Source of the DNA: a virus
Lineage: Duplodnaviria; Heunggongvirae; Uroviricota; Caudoviricetes
DNA: 30,130 nucleotides
Strand: one strand, 5' to 3'
Virus record (IMG/VR): IMGVR_UViG_2778261177_000009
Location: 1-30,130 of that record
Below, one piece after another: positions 3,460-26,009 of this stretch; position 1 is the first letter of the stretch, and each line of letters opens with the position of its first letter. The notes beneath the pieces are model-generated. The model worked only from the letters and a program-made list of their open reading frames with translations. It did not search any database and was not told the DNA's origin. The position numbers were made by a program, and so were the translations under genes.

Positions 3460-5870
3460 TAATTATACCCCGCTATTCTGATTTCTTTCATATAATTGTT
3501 ATTTACGTTATGTGTCATTTTAAATAACACATACCAACTATATGCAAGTCCATGTGTTTCATCTGCCATTTTTACAAAGCCAGGGGCAGTTGACCCCATT
3601 TGAGTTACTATTGTAGTGTTTTCAACTCCAGATGTAGCAACTTTTGAATTAGAAAACGCCGTGTAAGGATCTGTATTTATATCTCCGTCAAACGATATCA
3701 TCTGAATTAAACTTGCTTCAACAGTAGATCCTGCTGCTGCTGCATTCTGATCAGGTGAAATGTTAAATCTTATAAAAGCTCTTATATCATCAATAGCTTT
3801 TATATCATCTGGAACCCTCCACATGAAGTAAAGATCAACACCGTTTTTTGTTGATACTAATTTGTTAAATGTCCATGATAATGTGTCTGCTTTGTCGTTC
3901 AGAATTATTTCTGATGGTCTTAAATAAAAATATCTTCTGAACCAACCAAGAACAGTATTATTGGTTAAAAACCATGATTGCAGGTTTGTGCCACCAAAGC
4001 CTATAGATTTAGGGTTTTTATTTATTTTGTTTCCGCTTGCGTTATTATTTGCGAAATACAACTCATTTATGTATGCCCCCTTACCATGAAATGCATCAAT
4101 AACAGAGTATTTTGCACGAAGAGCGACAACATTATCAGCTGATGCAGAAATGTTTCTTATAATATTCGGCATGTTAGCATCATTATATGAATCATCAGTA
4201 TAGTAGGTGGCTACACCATTAATGCAGTCACCAACATCTATATTCTCAACAAGACAACCTTTTGCATTATTTAATAGAACCATCTCCGAAGATGCTGTAC
4301 GACCTAATTTTGCAGCTCGTAAATCTTTAAACCCACAGTTTTCTACAAAGTTTGTAGCAGCTCCTGAACCATTAATAGTTCCGGCAGTCATAGGCTTAAG
4401 TAGATCACAATCTTCAATCCAGCAATCTGTTGAGTTTGCAATAAAACCAAATGCATAATAAGTGCGAACAAGATCCGCCTTTTCAACGGTAGCACCTTTT
4501 GCAATTACATCATAACAAGATGGAGAAGAGGAAGAACTATCGTTACCAAAGTTAAACAATTGAGTCCAACCATCACCAACCACATCGAAAAATCTTATAT
4601 GCTGTGCATTAACACAATTAAATGCATAGCCTCCCCAATAGCTGGAATCAGTAAACACTGCAGACATGCGCAAGCCATAAACTTTACATTTCTCACACTG
4701 AACATAAGACTGATTATCTCTCAGGTAAGATTTCAGTGGTAACTCTGCCATCGTAGAATCAGCAACGGAAGACGGGTAATTACCGGAATTGTATGCCGCT
4801 TTTGCTTTTTTATAGTTCCATTCTCTGCCACTCCCAAAAACGAAACCACCACGACCATACATTGACAATGGGTTTATCTGTTTTACCGTAGCCCCATATC
4901 CTATAATTACAACATTGCTGGGTACGAACTGAATAAAATCAATCCAATAGGTTTTACCTGGTGTGAAATATGCTACACCGCCACCTAAAGATCGTAACCA
5001 CTCAAACATATTAAACATTTTTTTAGAATTAGCATGAGCGTCTGGCTGGGAATCAGTAATAACGCCCCATGCCTCAGGACAAGTCCACTTACCAATAAGT
5101 TGATTTAAAGATCCAGACCCTGGCATGCCCAGCAAAGACATACCAAGACCATCTTCATGAGATGCTAACTTTATTGCGAGATCTGCTGTATCTGTCATCG
5201 AAAAAACAGGTATTGGCTTTCCGTTGCTATCCCATCCTAACAACGAGTTTTTCCGAACAGATACCGGGCTTAGTTGGTCAACAGTGCTTTCTGGAACCCG
5301 TAGAGTTCTCGCAAAATTACTGTCAATCTTCTGATCAAGAATGGCATCACCAGCTTTCCAGGCATTGGTGTTGTCAACGATCTGCCCATCAACATAATTC
5401 TTCGTGGCTGCGTCCTGCGCCTGTGACGGGTCACGAAGGTTACGAATGCGGTTGTTGAGTGCGTCATAATAGTTCGCGATGAACGACGGCTTGCGCAGCG
5501 CCAGGCGTAGAAAGCTGAAACACTGCTGGATAAGCATGGTCAGCTTGTCGAACGCATCCTCATGGACCTCTGCGAAGAACTTCCCCTGGTTACGGAGGTC
5601 AGTCTCTTGGGTAACTGGGAGGTCGCGCGAGATAGAAATCTGCCATCCGTTGGCCAGCGGTGACATCAGCACGACATTCCCGCCAGAATAGGTACCCGCC
5701 CCGGTAACGGAGTAATCGGTATCCAGAGTCAGCACCGTAATATTTTCGTTAAGGTCAGCGACCTGGACGGTGAGATCTGACTTCTTGAAGATGCGGAACG
5801 TGTACGGGAAAGATGTGGTAACGCCGTTCCCTGTGTAGTCGTTATGGTCGACTTCGGTTGAGACCGTCAT
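3459..5870 (-). CDS. tailspike protein (conserved N-terminal virion-attachment domain plus beta-helix receptor-binding/depolymerase domain)
   Basis: GGAG RBS; 803 aa; N-terminus MTVSTEVDHNDYTGNGVTTSFPYTF recalled as the conserved tailspike anchor of epsilon15/phiV10-type phages; C-terminal two thirds are AT-rich with Gly/Asn/Ser-rich beta-helix-like repeats. Confidence 0.8.
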   Translation of the reverse strand: MTVSTEVDHNDYTGNGVTTSFPYTFRIFKKSDLTVQVADLNENITVLTLDTDYSVTGAGTYSGGNVVLMSPLANGWQISISRDLPVTQETDLRNQGKFFAEVHEDAFDKLTMLIQQCFSFLRLALRKPSFIANYYDALNNRIRNLRDPSQAQDAATKNYVDGQIVDNTNAWKAGDAILDQKIDSNFARTLRVPESTVDQLSPVSVRKNSLLGWDSNGKPIPVFSMTDTADLAIKLASHEDGLGMSLLGMPGSGSLNQLIGKWTCPEAWGVITDSQPDAHANSKKMFNMFEWLRSLGGGVAYFTPGKTYWIDFIQFVPSNVVIIGYGATVKQINPLSMYGRGGFVFGSGREWNYKKAKAAYNSGNYPSSVADSTMAELPLKSYLRDNQSYVQCEKCKVYGLRMSAVFTDSSYWGGYAFNCVNAQHIRFFDVVGDGWTQLFNFGNDSSSSSPSCYDVIAKGATVEKADLVRTYYAFGFIANSTDCWIEDCDLLKPMTAGTINGSGAATNFVENCGFKDLRAAKLGRTASSEMVLLNNAKGCLVENIDVGDCINGVATYYTDDSYNDANMPNIIRNISASADNVVALRAKYSVIDAFHGKGAYINELYFANNNASGNKINKNPKSIGFGGTNLQSWFLTNNTVLGWFRRYFYLRPSEIILNDKADTLSWTFNKLVSTKNGVDLYFMWRVPDDIKAIDDIRAFIRFNISPDQNAAAAGSTVEASLIQMISFDGDINTDPYTAFSNSKVATSGVENTTIVTQMGSTAPGFVKMADETHGLAYSWYVLFKMTHNVNNNYMKEIRIAGYN

Positions 5871-5973
5871 GTTAAATCTCCAGATAGTCGCAGCACCCGT
5901 TGCGCCGCATATCCGGTTATTTTATTACCTGAAAAACCACATATGGATAGATAGACTGTGAATTCGAACAGAT

Positions 5974-5990
5974 ATTACCTTTCAGGTAAT
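5974..5990. promoter_or_regulatory. TTACC-N5-GGTAA palindrome, site A (ATTACCTTTCAGGTAAT)
   Basis: Perfect 7-3-7 inverted repeat in the gap between the tailspike start and the LexA-box gene; member of a six-site family. Confidence 0.5.
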
Positions 5991-6026
5991 TTTAAAAACG
6001 TGCTGGATAGCAAATAAATTATTTGA

Positions 6027-6046
6027 TACTGTATAAATATACAGTT
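6027..6046. promoter_or_regulatory. LexA (SOS) box TACTGTATAAATATACAGTT
   Basis: Matches the E. coli LexA consensus TACTGTATATATATACAGTA at 18 of 20 positions with intact CTGT-N8-ACAG core; ends 20 nt upstream of the ATG at 6066. Confidence 0.7.
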
Positions 6047-6065
6047 ATTGCATGGAGAAGATAAG

Positions 6066-6323
6066 ATGCAGCAGTATCACTATCCACTGGAAGAGGGATT
6101 TACCGAAAGGATTCACACGCCGGGAGGCGTCAGGTCACTGGTGGAGGGATCGCACTTGATGAAATTACTCCGGGATCTCGATAAGGATGGATTTAATGTC
6201 GATGGCCCACTTGCCGAACTGACTGCACTGATTAACTACGTCACCAGCTCACAGATGTCTATGCGGGATCTGCAAACACATCTCGACTATTGTGCCGAAC
6301 AATTACGAAAACAAACCCGGTAA
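6066..6323 (+). CDS. small SOS-regulated protein, candidate antirepressor-type module
   Basis: First in-frame ATG with GGAG RBS (the ORF track starts at a TTG at 6048); LexA box just upstream; about 40 percent identical by eye over about 75 aa to the C-terminal domain of the AntA-domain protein at 7474..8130. Confidence 0.6.
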   Translation: MQQYHYPLEEGFTERIHTPGGVRSLVEGSHLMKLLRDLDKDGFNVDGPLAELTALINYVTSSQMSMRDLQTHLDYCAEQLRKQTR

Positions 6324-6327
6324 ATTT

Positions 6328-6350
6328 AAAGGCCGCAAGAGCGGCCTATC
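6328..6350. terminator. hairpin terminator between convergent genes
   Basis: Stem GGCCGC / GCGGCC with loop AAGA, T-rich sequence on both sides; overlaps the stop of the minus-strand gene 6346..7074. Confidence 0.45.
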
Positions 6351-7074
6351 GTTTCGCTTTGTGCTCATCCCAGCACGTTTTGCACCATGCCATTAAACCA
6401 TCCGCATTTTGATTATTAGGGTAAAAGCTGGTTCGTTTTCTGCGGACATTACAAATTGGGCACCACTTCATATGGCGTGTATTCTTTGGGCCATCGAGAC
6501 ACCTTGCACACCACTTAGTCAATCCATCTGGATTTTTTGACGATTTCCTGAATTTTTCATATGGAAGGTTTATTCTGCATCGCAAGCACTGCTTGCTACC
6601 ACTTGAGACTCTATTAGCTGATTCTTCTTTTGGCGGCGATACAGAAGGTATTCTTGCTGGCTCTGATACTGCCTGAGGTGCTTTTTTAGATGACTGAGAC
6701 GATATGTCATCACCAGGGAATCTTCCATGATATGCCGGAGGCGTTGACACTCCAGGTGGAAGCTCAGCTGTAAACGGCTTTGGCTGAATCAGTTGCCTCT
6801 CTTTTGCTAACTCCTGCTGTTTATAATATGTCTGGATTACCGCACTATCATAAGCAGGAGGTGCGGAAATATTAGGCGCATTACCTCCAGTTTTTTGAAA
6901 CTGAGTAGAGGTGTGTTCTATCACCTGTGTACGATTAATCGTTATCTCTCCATCTTCGGTCTTTATCGTTTTGTTATGATTAACGACCGTACGATCAGAG
7001 ATCTTAGTCTTGTTCTGGTTGATAACGTAAATAATCACCGCAACCACACCAACAACTATCCAGAAAACTTCCAT
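6346..7074 (-). CDS. membrane-anchored protein with two tandem C-x2-C-x22-C-x2-C zinc-ribbon repeats
   Basis: GAGGA RBS; N-terminal TM helix (VFWIVVGVVAVIIYVI), Pro/Ser-rich linker, then two repeats CLRC..(22)..WCARC and CPIC..(22)..WCKTC sharing a DGL-x2-WC core. Confidence 0.6.
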   Translation of the reverse strand: MEVFWIVVGVVAVIIYVINQNKTKISDRTVVNHNKTIKTEDGEITINRTQVIEHTSTQFQKTGGNAPNISAPPAYDSAVIQTYYKQQELAKERQLIQPKPFTAELPPGVSTPPAYHGRFPGDDISSQSSKKAPQAVSEPARIPSVSPPKEESANRVSSGSKQCLRCRINLPYEKFRKSSKNPDGLTKWCARCLDGPKNTRHMKWCPICNVRRKRTSFYPNNQNADGLMAWCKTCWDEHKAKR

Positions 7075-7093
7075 TGCTTTTCCTCACAATAAC

Positions 7094-7110
7094 ATTACCT
7101 TAAAGGTAAT
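7094..7110. promoter_or_regulatory. TTACC-N5-GGTAA palindrome, site B (ATTACCTTAAAGGTAAT)
   Basis: Perfect palindrome 20 bp upstream of the start of the minus-strand gene 6346..7074; includes a TACCTT that could be a plus-strand -10 preceded by TTGCTT. Confidence 0.5.
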
Positions 7111-7186
7111 ATCTTGCTTTCAGGTGATCAAGCGTTAAACGCAACCAACCAAATACGGTTGATTTTAATATTTCTTCGTGTTTATC

Positions 7187-7204
7187 ATTACCTTTGCGGT
7201 AAAT
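7187..7204. promoter_or_regulatory. TTACC-N5-GGTAA palindrome, site B2 (ATTACCTTTGCGGTAAAT)
   Basis: Second copy 93 bp downstream of site B, in the leader of the antirepressor-like gene. Confidence 0.45.
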
Positions 7205-7292
7205 TTACATCGCACTCCTCTTGTGCCATAGTAATCGGGCACTGGCAAAATCCAGTGCCGGGATTGGTCTCCCGGATTACTAAGTGGCGCAT

Positions 7293-7316
7293 ACCACGCC
7301 AGACGTGGTTTTTTTA
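7293..7316 (+). terminator. intrinsic terminator inside the 5' leader of the antirepressor-like gene
   Basis: Stem ACCACG / CGTGGT with loop CCAGA followed by TTTTTTT; preceded by another stable hairpin (GGCACTGG / CCAGTGCC, 7238..7259). Confidence 0.45.
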
Positions 7317-7473
7317 TGCGTATAGCACAGTCATGCCAGAATTATGGTGGGCTGAATGGGGGTCCGAAAGGACGCCGGTACCACTTAGGCCGGTAAGACC
7401 AACTCCGTTCAGTTCACCACCATCTGATTGGTCTCAGCGGTGGTGATGTAATTCGCTAAGTGGAGACACCATC

Positions 7474-8130
7474 ATGAACGCTCAACTCATCCCCGTATTC
7501 AACGGCACTATATCTAACGAAACAGCCCTACTTTGTAATGCCCGCGATCTGCACGCTTTTTTAGGTGTTAAAAAGGTGTTTGCAGCATGGATTACAAATC
7601 GCATTTCAGAATACGAATTCATTGAAAATCAAGACTATATTTTGCTTTCCAATTTGGGAAAGCAAACATCTGGTAGAGGCGGCCACAACCGCAAAGAGTA
7701 CCACCTCACCCTCGATACAGCCAAAGAGCTGGCAATGGTCGAGCGTAACGAAAAAGGTCGCCAGGTGCGACGCTACTTCATTGAATGCGAGAAACGTTTA
7801 AGACAACAAGAAACAAAAGTGGAGAACGTCTTGTCAGGCTTCATGCCCGCCATTATGGAGGCGATCAAGCTGGAAGACAAAAAAGAATACAGCGCCCCAC
7901 TGAAGCCCGGCTACCGCAGCCTGATTCACTCGCCGTCTGGTGTTCTCGGCCTGACGGAGAACTCACTGCTGATGAATCTGCTGAACCAGTTACAGGACGA
8001 CGGGCACGACGTATCGGGCGCGGCGGCGGAACTGACCACCATGTTCTGCTACATCGTCGGTGTGAGCAAATGCCTGCGTAATATCCAGACACACGCGGAA
8101 TACATCAACGACAAGGCAGGGTTCTTCTGA
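7474..8130 (+). CDS. phage antirepressor-like protein, AntA-type N-terminal domain plus C-terminal domain paralogous to 6066..6323
   Basis: GGAG RBS; N-terminal region ([33 protein letters not shown] ... [35 protein letters not shown]) matches the AntA/AntB antirepressor domain from recall; C-terminal about 80 aa aligns with the LexA-box gene product. Confidence 0.7.
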
Positions 8131-8201: not shown

Positions 8202-8218
8202 ATTACCTTAAAGGTAAA
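8202..8218. promoter_or_regulatory. TTACC-N5-GGTAA palindrome, site C (ATTACCTTAAAGGTAAA)
   Basis: Core 15-mer identical to site B; 42 bp upstream of the start of the two-gene operon at 8260. Confidence 0.5.
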
Positions 8219-8259: not shown

Positions 8260-8586
8260 ATGACAAAACTTGGATTCGTGATGAGAGGTCCGGTAAGAAG
8301 CGGAACTCATGCAAAGCGTAGCAAGAGTCGTATTTTTACTGGTAAGGTTGTAGCACGTAAATCAGCTATTGGCTCGTTCAATAGTGAAAATGCGGCATTG
8401 CGCCATATTTTTATCAGCACAAAGCCAAGAGCATCCGCTGATGTGCATACAATGTCTATTCCTATCACAAAGAGTATAAAGCGGATAAAAAAGCTCTCAT
8501 CTGCAGAATCAAAAGAGATATCTTTCCGCCAGCTTAACTCATTAGAAACGCATATGAAGGAAGAGGAATTCGATGTTTTTGAGTGA
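8260..8586 (+). CDS. small basic protein, first gene of a two-gene operon (candidate antitoxin/regulator)
   Basis: GGAG RBS 7 nt upstream; Lys/Arg-rich N-terminal half and acidic C-terminus (EEEFDVFE); overlaps the downstream gene by 14 nt; AT-rich. Confidence 0.45.
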   Translation: MTKLGFVMRGPVRSGTHAKRSKSRIFTGKVVARKSAIGSFNSENAALRHIFISTKPRASADVHTMSIPITKSIKRIKKLSSAESKEISFRQLNSLETHMKEEEFDVFE

Positions 8587-9085
8587 GTATAGCGGGAAGG
8601 TTATACCTACTGGTGAGTTTAAAACTGATGACTTTCTGATTTCGCTAAAAGATGCTTTTAAACAACACTGGCGTCATGGTCATCATCCTGATCTGGGAAA
8701 AGATACTCTTTTTGAAAGACCAGACGAAGTATTAGGTTTCCATCTCAGAAAGGTTCATGTCAATATTGGTGAATATGCATCATATTCATACTCATGTACT
8801 GAACAGTGTTGGGATGAGTGGTCATACGGATTGATTGATGAACAAGGAAATTACAGGCCAAAACCAACCAGTAACGCATATCTCATATATGCAGTCAATG
8901 AAATAAGAGATGCAGCCTTACTAGCTTATTGGGACCCGCCCGCACACACCAAAGCTAACGCAAAAGTTTGGATGGATTCCGTATTGAATTTCACAAAATT
9001 ATTTCATGAACGAACGAATACAGCTCCACTTAGTAGAAATGTTTATCCGTGGGATTATTCGTACAAATCCAAAAAGCCTGCATAG
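8573..9085 (+). CDS. hypothetical protein, weak collinear similarity to YafO-family toxins (candidate toxin or abortive-infection effector)
   Basis: AGGAAGAGGAA RBS inside the upstream gene; by eye three collinear blocks resemble E. coli YafO (GKDTLF vs GRDALY; RKVHVNI vs ERVAHIH; AYLIYA..AALLAY vs AHLVYC..AWLLIA); His-rich motif HWRHGHHPD; AT-rich. Confidence 0.5.
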   Translation: MFLSEYSGKVIPTGEFKTDDFLISLKDAFKQHWRHGHHPDLGKDTLFERPDEVLGFHLRKVHVNIGEYASYSYSCTEQCWDEWSYGLIDEQGNYRPKPTSNAYLIYAVNEIRDAALLAYWDPPAHTKANAKVWMDSVLNFTKLFHERTNTAPLSRNVYPWDYSYKSKKPA

Positions 9086-9369: not shown

Positions 9370-9510
9370 TTATGACAAGCCTATGTACCCTGCTACACCA
9401 GATAATATCAAAATAACTGCAACAGCAAATTCGCCATCGTCAATGATACATTTGCGGTTCATAACGCCAAGTGCAACAAGCGCAAACACAACAAGAATAA
9501 AAGCAATCAT
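9370..9510 (-). CDS. unannotated 46-aa two-helix membrane peptide coupled to the upstream ejection gene
   Basis: Hand translation: MIAFILVVFALVALGVMNRKCIIDDGEFAVAVILILSGVAGYIGLS; AAGGATGAG RBS; ATG 9 nt after the TAA stop of the 824-aa gene; followed by the GTGACATGTCAC palindrome and the terminator. Too short for the ORF track. Confidence 0.4.
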   Translation of the reverse strand: MIAFILVVFALVALGVMNRKCIIDDGEFAVAVILILSGVAGYIGLS

Positions 9511-9519
9511 TTCTCATCC

Positions 9520-11994
9520 TTATTGCGGAGTGACATCCTGTGGTCGCCACCAGTATGTCTGGTTAAACTCTTTCTTCGAACGTTGCTCCATTTTACGCAA
9601 ATAACCTGGTGAAAAATACTCCTGCATCTGGTTAAAGATCATGTGATCGAGAGCCGCCTTTAAGTACCAGAGATTCGCACCTGGCATCAGACCTTTCCCC
9701 AGCTTAACCAGATCACCACCAGTCTGCTCATTCTTCCCTTCCACAGCATTTAACGGTATGCCCTGAGCAATCTTCACTACGTCATCAACCAGACCAGCTA
9801 CCGGGCCAAGCATCGACGCCAGCGCGCCGCTTCCGTACCTAGTGTGATCTGACAATAAAAAGTCACCATAAAGGCCAAGGCCACCGCCTTTCAGTAACGC
9901 ACCAAGCCAGAATTTTGCGGAATCATCACCGGTCATATCACGCGGGTTCCTGCCTGATGCCATATCGTTTAGTTGCTGCGACAGCGCGCCAAGGATGGTT
10001 GTGCTGGCAATAAACGTCGCAATGTATGCCGCACGACCACCAGCAGACGGCATACCCATAGCGCGCGACCAGTGACGCATGACAACGGAGATCGGAAACG
10101 ACTTAAACAGAAACACACTGCGGGTTAACTCACCTTTCCATGTTCCGCGCTGGATTCCTGAACCAGTAACCATCTGCTCACGCGCACCAGGAGTGATGAC
10201 CGCCATATCCACTTCTTCGGTCACCGCTCCGAGCAGCTTACGCATCGCTTCAAACTTCACGCGTTCCGGTTCTCCCAAGTGCTCTACAGCAGCATCAGGA
10301 ATACGCATGATGCTCTCCGGCGTAAGCATCGTATCGTTACCCTTTCCCCAGTCCTCCTGTTGCGCCAGTTTCCACACACTCCAGTCTGTATCTGTGATCC
10401 CCTTACTTTTCAGTATGCGGAAATCTGCGTCATCGAGACTGCGAAGATCCGGTGTTCTGGTGACAACTTCGCCCAGGCTACCCATCATGGTGACACCATA
10501 GGCACGCTTATGCGCATCTGACCACGCTGTCAGGCCGCTGGCACGCATTACAGCCGTAGCCGCCCAACGGGACACAGAAGGCCCCATATTGTCCATCGCC
10601 CAGCGGTTAACGCTGCCAAGCAGAGATTCCATTGCCAGACCAGCACGACGGGCCCGCGCCAGTTCTGTGCGGTTCGCCGGATTCATCGCCTCTAACTGAT
10701 TCCTGAATAACTGGTTCATTGGCAGGTTGGTAACCTTCGCAGACAGATACATGGTTCCAAGATCAGAGAACGATGACAGCAACGCGGATCCGAGTCTGCT
10801 GGCAACCAGCCAGTTGCGGATATTGTCAGACCATCGCGCGATGTGCGGATTCGCTACAGGCTGTGTCTTTCCGGAAATAAAGTTGTACAGATTCTCTGTG
10901 TTGTTCGCCAGCCGCTCGACTTTACCGGTTTTACTCGGGTTAGCTGTTGCCGTTTCTGCCTTCACCTGATCAAGAAGAGAGCGGAAAACATGATCGGGGT
11001 TTGGGCCATATGTTTCCACCAGTGCAATATCTTTACTGATACCTTCCAGGTGACCGACCATGATTTCCCATAGAGAGCGATCGCCATAAAGTTGCTGATA
11101 TTGCAGATAGGAATCTGCATCTTTGAAATGTATCTGTCGTGATGCATTACCACGGTTAGCACGTGCGCCGGAAATTCGCATTCCGGTATCAGTAAGCTTA
11201 TTCAGCCCACCAGTAGCGATCGTGTTATAAGCCTCTCCAAGAAATGCAGACAACTCGGCATCGTTCATCAGTTGTCCATCGGCTCGGGTATAATATTTGC
11301 GATCCAGCTTACCTATAACATCGCTAACCCACTTATCCTTTGATACCGCCCCAACCTTTTCCATAGAATGATGTTGAGGTATTCCCCAGTTTTCGAGATA
11401 GCCAATGTCCCCACCAGCATCATTAAACCGGCGGCGCAGCAGCTCTGTAACTTCTCTCCACGCCTTAGCACCTTTTCTTGCTTTAGCATTGCCAGTATTT
11501 TGCCCCCGCATTTCATATACCAGGTCACGTACGCCCGCTTCATCTTCAAACAGACCAAAAAAGCGAGGATCAACTGCTTCGAATGCCTCCTGCAATTGAC
11601 TCAATGCATAATCACGAGTGGCTTTTGTTCTGGATTCAACAGAGAGGAAATTCGATTTACCGTCTGCATTAAAAGCAATAGTACGGTTAAGAGCGCCAAG
11701 TTTCCCATCAGCCCCTTGATAGCTATTGATAAATTTATCCAATCTCTGACGTGCGGCTATAGTGAGAGCCACACGACGTTTCTTTAATGCCGCTTCTCGC
11801 TGTAATTCTTCAGATGCCAATTGTGCTGCACGATACAACCGTTCTGATTCGGACAGTTGTCGCCACGACATCGGGTCATCACGAGCAATGGAGCGCATAT
11901 TTCGATAAATGCGGTCTTCAATGTTCTGTATTTCTCGCGCCGTTAACGTGCGCTGCGCCGCCTGCTGGACCGCTTGTATACATTCCTGTCTCAT
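9520..11994 (-). CDS. large internal virion / DNA-ejection protein
   Basis: 824 aa, last of three consecutive very large minus-strand genes between the head-tail genes and the tailspike; assignment by size and position only. Confidence 0.55.
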   Translation of the reverse strand: MRQECIQAVQQAAQRTLTAREIQNIEDRIYRNMRSIARDDPMSWRQLSESERLYRAAQLASEELQREAALKKRRVALTIAARQRLDKFINSYQGADGKLGALNRTIAFNADGKSNFLSVESRTKATRDYALSQLQEAFEAVDPRFFGLFEDEAGVRDLVYEMRGQNTGNAKARKGAKAWREVTELLRRRFNDAGGDIGYLENWGIPQHHSMEKVGAVSKDKWVSDVIGKLDRKYYTRADGQLMNDAELSAFLGEAYNTIATGGLNKLTDTGMRISGARANRGNASRQIHFKDADSYLQYQQLYGDRSLWEIMVGHLEGISKDIALVETYGPNPDHVFRSLLDQVKAETATANPSKTGKVERLANNTENLYNFISGKTQPVANPHIARWSDNIRNWLVASRLGSALLSSFSDLGTMYLSAKVTNLPMNQLFRNQLEAMNPANRTELARARRAGLAMESLLGSVNRWAMDNMGPSVSRWAATAVMRASGLTAWSDAHKRAYGVTMMGSLGEVVTRTPDLRSLDDADFRILKSKGITDTDWSVWKLAQQEDWGKGNDTMLTPESIMRIPDAAVEHLGEPERVKFEAMRKLLGAVTEEVDMAVITPGAREQMVTGSGIQRGTWKGELTRSVFLFKSFPISVVMRHWSRAMGMPSAGGRAAYIATFIASTTILGALSQQLNDMASGRNPRDMTGDDSAKFWLGALLKGGGLGLYGDFLLSDHTRYGSGALASMLGPVAGLVDDVVKIAQGIPLNAVEGKNEQTGGDLVKLGKGLMPGANLWYLKAALDHMIFNQMQEYFSPGYLRKMEQRSKKEFNQTYWWRPQDVTPQ

Positions 11995-25573: not shown

Positions 25574-25602
25574 TTGACATTTAACGCACGAATTATTACC
25601 TT
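25574..25602 (+). promoter_or_regulatory. sigma70-like promoter (TTGACA, 17-bp spacer, TACCTT) overlapping palindrome site D
   Basis: Perfect -35 hexamer TTGACA at 25574..25579; the TAnnnT hexamer TACCTT at 25597..25602 lies inside the palindrome; oriented toward the tRNA and the plus-strand ORF. Confidence 0.45.
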
Positions 25603-25932: not shown

Positions 25933-26009
25933 GTGGCATTAGCTCAGTCGGACAGAGCAACCGCCTTCTAAGCGGTTGGTCGCAGGTTCGAATCCTGCAT
26001 GCCACGCCA
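25933..26009 (+). tRNA. tRNA-Arg (anticodon UCU), phage-borne
   Basis: Hand-folded cloverleaf: acceptor GTGGCAT/ATGCCAC, D-stem GCTC/GAGC, anticodon stem ACCGC/GCGGT with loop CTTCTAA, T-arm GCAGG-TTCGAAT-CCTGC, discriminator G and encoded CCA. T-arm matches E. coli argU as recalled. Confidence 0.85.

What the first reader, a model, noticed from the sequence alone, without database searches (positions are those of the whole stretch)
5974..8130. Near-consensus LexA box in front of a small gene whose product is paralogous to the C-terminal domain of an AntA-type antirepressor
TACTGTATAAATATACAGTT (6027..6046) matches the LexA consensus at 18 of 20 positions and lies 20 nt upstream of the gene at 6066..6323. 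That 85-aa product aligns by eye at about 40 percent identity over about 75 residues with the C-terminal domain of the 218-aa AntA-domain protein at 7474..8130 (for example IHTPGGVRSLVEGSHLMKLLRDLDKDGFNVDGPLAELT vs [38 protein letters not shown]; QTH..Y conserved). This suggests an SOS-inducible stand-alone copy of an antirepressor effector domain, comparable to LexA-controlled antirepressors such as Tum of phage 186 and the Gifsy prophage antirepressors, but with a duplicated-domain arrangement I do not recognise as described.
Basis: partly seen in the sequence, partly recalled or inferred. Interest (0 to 1): 0.7.

Follow-up and report, generated by a model that had tools for sequence, protein, structure and literature searches.

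The report
SOS-controlled phage antirepressor plus fused paralogue
The small gene behind the LexA box is the E. coli-prophage version of an already characterised, DNA-damage-inducible antirepressor (Ant of Salmonella phage SPC32H); its fold also forms the tail of a second, RNA-controlled antirepressor 1.2 kb downstream, which is a modest new detail.

Summary
TACTGTATAAATATACAGTT (6027-6046) is the only near-consensus LexA box in the window. The 85-aa product of 6066-6323 aligns with residues 137-210 of the 218-aa AntA protein (7474-8130) at 42% identity, E=5e-16.

The small protein is not new. It is 88% identical to Ant of phage SPC32H (PDB 5D50), a LexA-repressed antirepressor that breaks up the Rep repressor tetramer. 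The window is an epsilon15-like (Uetakevirus) E. coli prophage, and the gene sits in the same slot as in SPC32H.

The larger gene is a modular antirepressor: an AntA N-domain plus an Ant-like C-domain. It has separate controls:
- a conserved operator-like palindrome abutting its promoter;
- an isrK sRNA followed by a C4 antisense RNA, as in the phage P1 immI region. The two C4 loops match sites in isrK and at the gene's ribosome-binding site, and these co-vary across relatives (three specificity types).

The Ant-like domain occurs only in phages that also encode a Rep homologue. It is fused to at least five different N-domains.

Verdict: this is a known circuit with a new member. The two-sensor, shared-effector-domain arrangement appears undescribed in the papers I could search. 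Interest is moderate to low.

The parts
5974..5990 (.). 17-bp palindrome ATTACCTTTCAGGTAAT, a candidate Rep operator in the tailspike/ant divergent intergenic region
   Evidence: TTACC-N5-GGTAA: 6 exact sites in the window, 0.49 expected for sites with up to 1 mismatch. Arms are invariant and the spacer varies across 9 phages. The orthologous site in epsilon15 is annotated 'protein_bind: repressor, lysogeny'.
6004..6032 (+). Candidate ant promoter: -35 TGGATA (6004-6009), 17-nt spacer, -10 TACTGT (6027-6032). An alternative -35 TTGATA (6023-6028) would use a weak -10 at 6046-6051.
   Evidence: By eye. CTGGA(T/A)A and TACTGT are conserved in the 9-phage alignment. The consensus scan did not call a promoter here. 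Either choice places the LexA box over the core promoter. Inferred, not mapped.
6027..6046 (.). LexA box TACTGTATAAATATACAGTT
   Evidence: 18 of 20 matches to consensus; unique in the window, 0 in 100 shuffles; conserved in orthologous position.
6066..6323 (+). ant: 85-aa antirepressor, orthologue of SPC32H Ant
   Evidence: 88% identity to PDB 5D50 chain E, E=5.6e-47. PHROG 450, E=8e-48. Same slot between tailspike and structural genes as SPC32H ant.
6330..6347 (.). G+C-rich hairpin ending ant and the convergent 242-aa gene
   Evidence: Terminator-like site; the sequence is.
7094..7110 (.). Palindrome ATTACCTTAAAGGTAAT, 20 nt upstream of the ATG (7074) of the 242-aa gene on the minus strand
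   Evidence: also present in TL-2011b.
7187..7203 (.). Palindrome ATTACCTTTGCGGTAAA abutting the -35 of the isrK promoter; candidate Rep operator of the second antirepressor operon
   Evidence: Its centre lies at -44 (-41 in phiV10) from the isrK 5' end in six phages of three genera. Arms are invariant and the spacer varies.
7204..7232 (+). Promoter-like site: TTTACA, 17-nt spacer, CATAGT (preceded by TG). The expected start is about 7239, which is the isrK 5' end.
   Evidence: Promoter scan; both hexamers conserved across six phages.
7239..7315 (+). isrK-type sRNA with its own terminator. It carries the upstream copies of both C4 target sites: TTGGTCT (7264-7270) and CTAAGTGG (7280-7287).
   Evidence: Rfam RF01394, 67.7 bits against a gathering score of 50; complementarity to C4.
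7340..7424 (+). C4-type antisense RNA with loop CCACUUAG (7381-7388) and single-stranded AGACCAA (7396-7402)
   Evidence: Rfam RF01695, 61.2 bits against a gathering score of 45. Its loops co-vary with their targets across relatives.
7428..7465 (+). Downstream C4 target sites in the mRNA leader: TTGGTCT (7428-7434) and CTAAGTGG (7456-7463). The second overlaps the Shine-Dalgarno GGAG (7462-7465) of the antirepressor gene.
   Evidence: Exact complementarity; compensatory changes in TL-2011b/phiV10 and in Tyrion/Klebsiella phages.
7474..8130 (+). 218-aa modular antirepressor: AntA domain (aa 22-92, nt 7537-7749), helical linker, Ant-like C-domain (aa 137-213, nt 7882-8112)
   Evidence: Pfam AntA, E=4.3e-26. 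C-domain against 5D50_E, E=4.1e-13. 42% identity to ant. Fold match TM 0.85. PHROG 377 'anti-repressor Ant'.
8202..8218 (.). Palindrome ATTACCTTAAAGGTAAA between the antirepressor gene and the next gene pair

Best explanation
The window is the late and accessory region of an epsilon15-like (Uetakevirus) E. coli prophage. The lysogeny repressor Rep of such phages is not in the window. In the characterised relative it is not cleaved on induction; an antirepressor inactivates it.

Circuit 1 (known from SPC32H, inferred here by orthology):
- In a lysogen, host LexA sits on the box at 6027-6046, which overlaps the ant promoter.
- DNA damage leads to LexA self-cleavage and ant is transcribed.
- The 85-aa Ant binds the C-terminal domain of Rep, splits the Rep tetramer into dimers and releases it from its operators. 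The lytic genes switch on.

Circuit 2 (inferred):
- A second antirepressor (7474-8130) carries a paralogue of the Ant fold as its C-terminal domain, behind an AntA N-domain.
- It has two locks. The first is a candidate Rep operator abutting its promoter. The second is a P1-immI-type RNA switch: the C4 RNA, made from the same transcript, pairs through two loops with two sites in the leader, one over the ribosome-binding site, and blocks translation.
- The short isrK RNA upstream carries the same two sites. It probably competes for C4 and so opens translation, as IsrK does for AnrP in the Salmonella prophage Gifsy-1.
- Circuit 2 would therefore fire once Rep has begun to fail, reinforcing induction. 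It would also fire from an incoming phage whose C4 type differs from the resident's (anti-immunity).

Both proteins are proposed to act on the same Rep through the shared domain.
For: Shown computationally here:
- ant is 88% identical to the crystallised SPC32H Ant and lies in the same genomic slot.
- The LexA box is unique in the window and positionally conserved across four host genera. A diverged Ant relative (P0153) has a 17/20 box; another (P0139) has none.
- The C-domain of the 218-aa protein is homologous to Ant by sequence and by predicted fold.
- Among 50,697 phage records, the Ant domain occurs in 35. All 35 also encode a full-length Rep homologue. The fused C-domain is confined to that same set.
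- Stx phages share only the AntA N-domain, at about 91% DNA identity, and not the C-domain. So the C-domain tracks Rep and the N-domain does not.
- The same C-domain is fused to AntA, Bro-N, P22_AR_N, Phage_pRha and ORF6N N-domains.
- isrK and C4 score above the Rfam gathering thresholds. They precede the fused gene in every relative checked.
- The C4 loops and both target pairs co-vary in three types: CCACUUAG/AGACCAA, CCUUUUAG/ACGCCAA and CCUUUGUAG/AGACCAA.
- The palindrome sits at -44 from isrK in six phages. The same motif clusters around rep in SPC32H and phiv142-3. The epsilon15 record annotates it as a repressor-binding site.

From the literature:
- Ant is made after LexA cleavage (PMC7380047).
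- An Ant tetramer binds two Rep dimers and breaks the tetramer (PMC9638917).
- IsrK activates translation of the downstream antirepressor AnrP (PMC4825925).
- Overexpressing the Bro-N/Ant-like protein of phage ZX5 cut lysogens about 1000-fold (PMC9782041). ZX5's Rep is 100% identical to that of the window's E. coli relatives, and its C-domain is 92% identical to the window's.
Against: - rep is not in the window. I could not find the source genome among complete E. coli genomes. The cognate Rep is therefore assumed from relatives.
- Nothing here shows that the fused C-domain binds Rep. It is only 42% identical to Ant.
- Ant is 88% conserved between SPC32H and this phage, but the Ant-binding C-domain of Rep is only 37% identical. 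Transfer of specificity is not guaranteed even for the small protein.
- Calling the palindromes Rep operators rests on their distribution and on a depositor's annotation, not on data I could read. The primary SPC32H and epsilon15 papers were not available.
- The ant promoter hexamers are weak and unmapped.
- In phiV10 the fused gene is split by a frameshift. So it is dispensable in at least one lineage.
Confidence: 0.72

Rival explanations
1. The Ant-like C-domain of the 218-aa protein is only an oligomerisation scaffold. Ant is a tetramer, so the fold could serve that role alone. Target recognition would then lie in the AntA N-domain, which would act on a different repressor, for example the CI of co-resident lambdoid prophages. 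On this view the two genes do not converge on Rep.
For: The AntA N-domain is about 91% identical at the DNA level to those of Stx and lambdoid phage antirepressors that lack this C-domain. Identity between the C-domain and Ant is only 42%. Antirepressor cross-talk between unrelated prophages is documented (FsoA of Fels-1 acting on Gifsy-2; PMC3121763).
Against: The C-domain occurs only in phages that encode Rep, whichever of five N-domains it is attached to. A generic oligomerisation module would not be expected to be so restricted. The family has only 59 clusters among 1.84 billion representative proteins. The Bro-N/Ant-like protein of ZX5 shifted that phage away from lysogeny.
Confidence: 0.15
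2. The fused antirepressor is an anti-immunity weapon aimed mainly at other phages. It would be expressed from an infecting genome to inactivate the Rep of a resident relative whose C4 RNA is of a different type, and would play little part in induction of its own prophage.
For: phiv142-3 and phiV10 have 100% identical Rep but different C4 and target types and different N-domains. This is the phage P1/P7 situation (own knowledge). The phiV10 record already calls the gene 'putative anti-immunity protein'. The module is an accessory insert that is absent from the Salmonella members.
Against: This is compatible with the main explanation rather than opposed to it. The operator at the promoter predicts derepression during the phage's own induction as well. 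There are no superinfection data.
Confidence: 0.1
3. The LexA-box match or the protein similarity is coincidental, or the small ORF is not a real gene.
For: None found. The consensus promoter scan did not call a promoter in front of ant.
Against: 0 of 100 shuffles give a box this good. The box and the ORF are conserved across genera. 529 of 5426 complete E. coli genomes carry the locus at 90% identity or more. The homologue has been crystallised.
Confidence: 0.01

Closest known systems
Ant / Rep / LexA switch of Salmonella phage SPC32H (Kim & Ryu 2013, J Virol 87:11775; Kim et al. 2016, PNAS 113:E2480; PDB 5D50)
   Same: The small protein is 88% identical over its full length. The gene position and orientation are the same. 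The LexA box is at the same distance from the start codon. The dispersed TTACC-N5-GGTAA palindromes are the same.
   Different: The host is E. coli. The Rep of the E. coli relatives is only 42% identical to SPC32H Rep, and 37% in the Ant-binding domain. SPC32H has no second antirepressor and no isrK/C4.
immI region of phages P1/P7 (c4 antisense RNA, icd, ant1/2; promoter under C1 operator Op51), recalled from own knowledge, and the related P4 CI RNA / seqA-seqC system (cited in PMC4825925)
   Same: C4 RNA family member. Two loops pair with two sites both upstream and downstream of C4, and the downstream pair masks the ribosome-binding site. Specificity types co-vary. A candidate primary-repressor operator lies at the promoter.
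   Different: There is no icd-like leader ORF; C4 ends 49 nt before the antirepressor ATG. The antirepressor protein is unrelated to P1 Ant in its C-domain. The primary repressor is Rep rather than C1.
isrK-orf45-anrP locus of the Salmonella prophage Gifsy-1 (Hershko-Shalev et al. 2016, PMC4825925)
   Same: An isrK family RNA with its own terminator is followed by a processed stable RNA and an antirepressor gene. Translation of that gene needs IsrK in trans.
   Different: The phage type is different and there is no orf45. The effector here carries the Ant-like domain. I did not compare the sequence with AnrP.
LexA-controlled antirepressors Tum (phage 186), AntC (N15) and GfoA/GfhA/GftA (Gifsy), described in PMC3121763
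   Same: The logic is the same: an uncleavable repressor is inactivated by a small protein whose gene lies outside the immunity region and is repressed by LexA. Fels-1 FsoA is a precedent for a homologous antirepressor under phage-repressor control instead of LexA.
   Different: No sequence relationship was detected. Pfam gives no DinI or Tum-like hit for either protein. The stoichiometry also differs: an Ant tetramer with two Rep dimers against an A2B2 complex for GfoR-GfoA.
P22 immI (arc, mnt, sar RNA, ant)
   Same: In the relative TL-2011b a third protein with the Ant-like C-domain has a P22_AR_N N-domain. It sits next to an Arc-like repressor and a sar RNA.
   Different: That module is not present in this window.

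Membership tests
SPC32H-type Ant (small LexA-controlled antirepressor; PDB 5D50 chains E-H; PHROG 450) | Full-length sequence homology to the roughly 86-aa Ant | tested here: met
   E=5.6e-47, residues 2-84 against 3-85, 88% identity. PHROG 450, E=8.3e-48.
SPC32H-type Ant (small LexA-controlled antirepressor; PDB 5D50 chains E-H; PHROG 450) | LexA box over the promoter directly upstream | tested here: met
   An 18/20 box at 6027-6046, unique in the window and conserved with SPC32H and epsilon15. This is in silico only.
SPC32H-type Ant (small LexA-controlled antirepressor; PDB 5D50 chains E-H; PHROG 450) | Position between the tailspike and the large structural genes of a Uetakevirus genome, transcribed divergently from the tailspike | tested here: met
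   Window ORF map compared with SPC32H, phiV10 and phiv142-3.
SPC32H-type Ant (small LexA-controlled antirepressor; PDB 5D50 chains E-H; PHROG 450) | Cognate Rep repressor encoded by the same phage | tested here: inconclusive
   No Rep in the window. All 35 phage records with Ant carry Rep. An E. coli prophage with an identical ant segment carries Rep.
SPC32H-type Ant (small LexA-controlled antirepressor; PDB 5D50 chains E-H; PHROG 450) | Binds the Rep C-domain and disassembles the tetramer; SOS-dependent expression | not testable with these tools
   Needs biochemistry and genetics.
P1-type immI / isrK-C4 controlled antirepressor operon | C4-family RNA and isrK-family RNA in tandem upstream of an antirepressor gene | tested here: met
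   RF01695 at 61.2 bits (gathering score 45) and RF01394 at 67.7 bits (gathering score 50). AntA domain protein directly downstream.
P1-type immI / isrK-C4 controlled antirepressor operon | Two C4 loops complementary to paired sites upstream and downstream, the downstream pair at the ribosome-binding site | tested here: met
   Exact 7- and 8-nt matches at 7264/7280 and 7428/7456. Three co-varying types across five loci.
P1-type immI / isrK-C4 controlled antirepressor operon | Leader ORF (icd in P1, orf45 in Gifsy-1) translationally coupled to the antirepressor | tested here: not met
   Only 49 nt separate the end of C4 (7424) from the ATG at 7474, and the downstream site overlaps that gene's own Shine-Dalgarno.
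P1-type immI / isrK-C4 controlled antirepressor operon | Operon promoter under the primary repressor | tested here: inconclusive
   A conserved palindrome lies at -44. The motif is annotated as a repressor site in epsilon15. I had no access to binding data.
AntA/AntB antirepressor (Pfam PF08346) | AntA domain above the gathering score | tested here: met
   91.7 bits against a cut-off of 27, residues 22-92.
Tum (186) / DinI-fused antirepressors | Sequence relationship (Tum N-half or DinI-like half) | tested here: not met
   No DinI or Tum family among the Pfam hits at E<=0.1 for either protein. No direct pairwise comparison with Tum was made.

The most novel reading that the evidence does not exclude
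E. coli, Enterobacter and Klebsiella epsilon15-like phages have a bipartite immunity system of the phage P1/P7 kind that has not been described for this group. One repressor (Rep) would be attacked by two paralogous copies of the same effector domain, each wired to a different sensor. The first sensor is LexA (DNA damage). The second is a Rep-operator promoter combined with an IsrK/C4 RNA switch. Phages with 100% identical Rep carry different C4 and target types. A superinfecting relative could therefore escape the resident C4, express its antirepressor and induce or overrun the resident prophage. The Ant fold would be a portable Rep-specific effector cassette that has been grafted onto at least five N-domains and three regulatory modules (LexA, C4/isrK, Arc/sar).
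Probability: 0.4. Interest if true: 0.55.

Novelty: new member of a known kind. Interest (0 to 1): 0.35.

Why it matters
- Annotation gap: the characterised antirepressor Ant is still labelled 'hypothetical protein' in about 10% of complete E. coli genomes (529 of 5426). Its PHROG family carries no function. The one functional study of an E. coli relative examined only the larger Bro-N protein and never mentions LexA or SPC32H.
- Induction studies: SOS induction of these prophages, which include O157-associated phiV10-type phages, most likely runs through the small gene. Recognising this changes which gene should be deleted or monitored.
- Natural experiment: the shared domain under two or three different control modules, with co-varying C4 types on an identical Rep background, allows a test of how antirepressor specificity and immunity specificity evolve separately.

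None of this overturns existing models.

Tried and rejected
- Primary papers: Kim & Ryu 2013, Kim et al. 2016 and Kropinski et al. 2007 are not held. Operator and interface details had to be inferred from sequence, GenBank annotation and citing papers.
- First palindrome pattern: it was mistyped by one base and gave no hits. The corrected search is.
- Second CTGT-N8-ACAG (5956-5971): rejected as a LexA site because it has a G/C-containing spacer and is not conserved.
- Whole-RNA duplex energies of C4 against the leader or isrK: uninformative against shuffles (36/500 and 124/500). The argument rests on the exact two-site matches and their covariation instead.
- Source genome: the ant-antA segment is 100% identical to E. 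coli MB31, but the right end of the window differs. No complete genome matches it fully.
- Other libraries: NCBIfam and PADLOC gave nothing for any gene in the region.
- AlphaFold N-domain: too low in confidence (pLDDT below 50) to interpret.
- Homologue search with the small protein: it returned only close stand-alone relatives. The profile search of representatives was needed to see the fused forms.
- LexA box across the family: a 7/8-arm, 17/20 box precedes a diverged stand-alone Ant relative (P0153), and a 7/8-arm, 15/20 box precedes the stand-alone 89-aa gene beside the pRha-fused P0132. No convincing box was found for a third, P0139.
Full report
**Observation.** TACTGTATAAATATACAGTT lies at 6027-6046 and matches the LexA consensus at 18 of 20 positions. 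It is the only site in the window within three mismatches of the consensus, and none appeared in 100 shuffles. It ends 19 nt before the ATG at 6066, with GGAG at 6054-6057. The 85-aa product of 6066-6323 aligns without gaps to residues 137-210 of the 218-aa protein encoded at 7474-8130, at 42% identity, E=5e-16. The larger protein has an N-terminal AntA domain, E=4.3e-26.

**What the small gene is.** It is not a new protein.
- It matches the 'Anti-repressor protein' chains of PDB 5D50 at E=5.6e-47 and 88% identity over the full length. 5D50 is the Rep-Ant complex of Salmonella phage SPC32H.
- The window is the late and accessory region of an epsilon15-like podovirus (genus Uetakevirus). Its closest relatives are Escherichia phages phiv142-3, TL-2011b and phiV10.
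- In SPC32H, epsilon15, phiV10, phiv142-3 and the window, the gene sits in the same slot. It is transcribed divergently from the tailspike and convergently with the large structural genes.
- An alignment of the upstream region from nine phages of four host genera shows conserved LexA-box arms with a variable spacer.
- Of two diverged stand-alone relatives examined, one (P0153) keeps a LexA-like box with 7 of 8 arm positions; the other (P0139) has no convincing box. The stand-alone gene beside the pRha-fused P0132 also has a 7/8-arm box.
- According to papers I could read, Ant is made after LexA cleavage (PMC7380047, citing Kim & Ryu 2013). It is a tetramer that binds two Rep dimers and breaks the DNA-binding Rep tetramer (PMC9638917, citing Kim et al. 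2016).

**What the larger gene is.**
- Its C-terminal domain is a true paralogue of Ant: E=4.1e-13 against 5D50_E. In an AlphaFold model whose C-domain has pLDDT 70-88, the top PDB fold match is the Ant chain, with TM 0.85 and rmsd 1.1 A.
- The domain family is small: 59 clusters among 1.84 billion representative proteins. It occurs both stand-alone and at the C-terminus of proteins of 130-320 aa.
- The N-terminal partners are AntA, Bro-N, P22_AR_N, Phage_pRha and ORF6N.
- Among 50,697 phage records, the Ant domain occurs in 35. Every one of these also encodes a full-length Rep homologue. The fused form is restricted to the same set.
- In contrast, the AntA N-domain is shared at about 91% DNA identity with Stx and lambdoid phages that lack this C-domain.

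The C-domain thus travels with Rep while the N-domain does not. This is the main argument that the C-domain is the Rep-directed part. It is an inference; no binding was tested. One indirect experiment exists. Overexpressing the Bro-N/Ant-like protein of phage ZX5 reduced lysogens about 1000-fold (PMC9782041). ZX5's Rep is 100% identical to that of the window's E. coli relatives, and its C-domain is 92% identical to the window's.

**How the larger gene is controlled.**
- Rfam finds an isrK sRNA (7239-7315, 67.7 bits) and a C4 antisense RNA (7340-7424, 61.2 bits) directly upstream of the gene.
- The C4 hairpin loop CCACUUAG and the single-stranded AGACCAA are exactly complementary to CUAAGUGG and UUGGUCU. 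Both sites occur inside isrK (7280, 7264) and again in the leader (7456, 7428). The leader copy of CUAAGUGG overlaps the Shine-Dalgarno sequence.
- The same module precedes the fused antirepressor in TL-2011b, phiV10, phiv142-3, Enterobacter phage Tyrion, a Klebsiella phage and one further prophage carrying a pRha-type N-domain.
- The loop and target sequences differ between these loci and co-vary in all three places. TL-2011b and phiV10 have CCUUUUAG/ACGCCAA. Tyrion and the Klebsiella phage have CCUUUGUAG/AGACCAA.

From my own knowledge, this is the architecture of the P1/P7 immI region (c4, target sites a1/b1 and a2/b2). It also resembles the Gifsy-1 isrK-anrP locus, where IsrK in trans is needed for translation of the antirepressor (PMC4825925). 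Unlike P1 and Gifsy-1, there is no leader ORF here.

**The palindromes.**
- TTACC-N5-GGTAA occurs six times exactly in the window, against 0.49 expected for sites with up to one mismatch. All six lie between transcription units.
- In SPC32H and phiv142-3 the same motif clusters on both sides of rep and in front of the early, terminase, head and tailspike units.
- The epsilon15 GenBank record annotates these sites as repressor-binding.
- One copy lies between the tailspike and ant (5974-5990).
- Another abuts the -35 of the isrK promoter. Its centre lies at -44 (-41 in phiV10) in six phages from three genera, with invariant arms and a variable spacer.

I read them as Rep operators. This is inferred, and I had no access to binding data. 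If correct, the second antirepressor operon is repressed by Rep, much as P1 immI is repressed by C1.

**Proposed mechanism.**
1. DNA damage removes LexA and Ant is made. Ant disassembles Rep.
2. Loss of Rep opens the lytic promoters and also the isrK-C4-antirepressor operon.
3. IsrK relieves the C4 block, so a second Rep-directed protein accumulates and reinforces the switch.
4. The same operon on an incoming genome would act as an anti-immunity function unless the resident prophage supplies a matching C4.
5. phiv142-3 and phiV10 have identical Rep but different C4 types. Immunity between such phages may therefore be decided at this locus, as for P1 and P7.

Step 1 is established for SPC32H and inferred here. 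Steps 2-5 are inferred.

**Caveats.**
- rep is outside the window and I could not identify the source genome.
- Ant is 88% conserved between SPC32H and this phage, but the Ant-binding domain of Rep is only 37% identical. I cannot explain this.
- The ant promoter hexamers are weak and unmapped.
- In phiV10 the fused gene is split by a frameshift.
- The main rival is that the fused C-domain only oligomerises the protein while the AntA domain targets another repressor. The strict co-occurrence with Rep speaks against this, but it is not excluded.

**Novelty and score.**
- The LexA-Ant-Rep circuit, the AntA family and the isrK/C4 switch are each known.
- What I did not find described in the searchable literature is threefold: that the second antirepressor of the E. 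coli, Enterobacter and Klebsiella members carries an Ant paralogue as its C-domain, that it sits under a C4/isrK switch with several specificity types, and that the domain is shuffled among five N-domains.
- There is also a plain annotation gap. The small gene is 'hypothetical protein' in 529 of 5426 complete E. coli genomes, and its PHROG family has no function assigned.
- I rate this a new member of a known kind, with interest 0.35.

Noticed in passing
window 6346-7074 (-): A 242-aa protein with an N-terminal membrane helix and C-terminal cysteine-rich repeats. It belongs to PHROG 6762 (unknown function) and has weak zinc-ribbon hits of endonuclease VII, Lar-like and Stc1 type. It is inserted between ant and isrK and has its own operator-like palindrome 20 nt upstream of the ATG. 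TL-2011b annotates it only as a misc_feature.
   Followed up: partly
window 8260-8586 and 8573-9085 (+): An overlapping gene pair of 108 aa and 170 aa. The 170-aa protein is YafO-toxin-like, with Pfam E=9.5e-4 below the cut-off; its TL-2011b homologue is annotated as a YafO family toxin. This may be a toxin-antitoxin moron. It is preceded by the palindrome at 8202-8218. There is no PADLOC hit.
   Followed up: partly
Ant (window 6066-6323) compared with Rep of relatives (L004 33739-34335; L005 32364-32948): The antirepressor is 88% identical between SPC32H and the E. coli phages. Rep is only 42% identical overall: 54% in the DNA-binding N-domain and 37% in the Ant-binding C-domain. The effector is far better conserved than its target. 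Possible causes are mosaic recombination or broad specificity.
   Followed up: partly
L001 (TL-2011b) 9463-10647: A third protein with the Ant-like C-domain (P22_AR_N N-domain, 313 aa) lies next to an Arc-like repressor and a sar RNA. One phage therefore carries the same domain under LexA, C4/isrK and Arc/sar control.
   Followed up: partly
L003 (phiV10) 5571-6250: The second antirepressor is split into two annotated genes, p23 and p22, by a frameshift inside the Ant-like domain. The same split is seen in O157 typing phages 9 and 10.
   Followed up: no
L016 6001-6960 (protein P0132): The called 319-aa ORF runs across isrK (6003-6080) and C4 (6103-6189). Its N-terminus is therefore almost certainly over-extended, and the real Phage_pRha/Ant-like protein probably starts after C4.
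   Followed up: no
window 25933-26009 (+): A tRNA-Arg (anticodon UCU) lies between the head and terminase gene blocks, next to another operator-like palindrome at 25596.
   Followed up: no
window 5916-5946: A conserved block, TATTACC..AAACC..ATATG.AT, contains a lone TTACC half-site between the tailspike start and the full palindrome. It is invariant in nine phages. The epsilon15 record places an IHF site nearby.
   Followed up: no
window 7439-7446: The leader sequence GGTGGTGA is complementary to the 3' strand of the C4 closing stem (7414-7421). This is conserved in all five loci examined, so it could form an alternative pairing in the unprocessed transcript.
   Followed up: no
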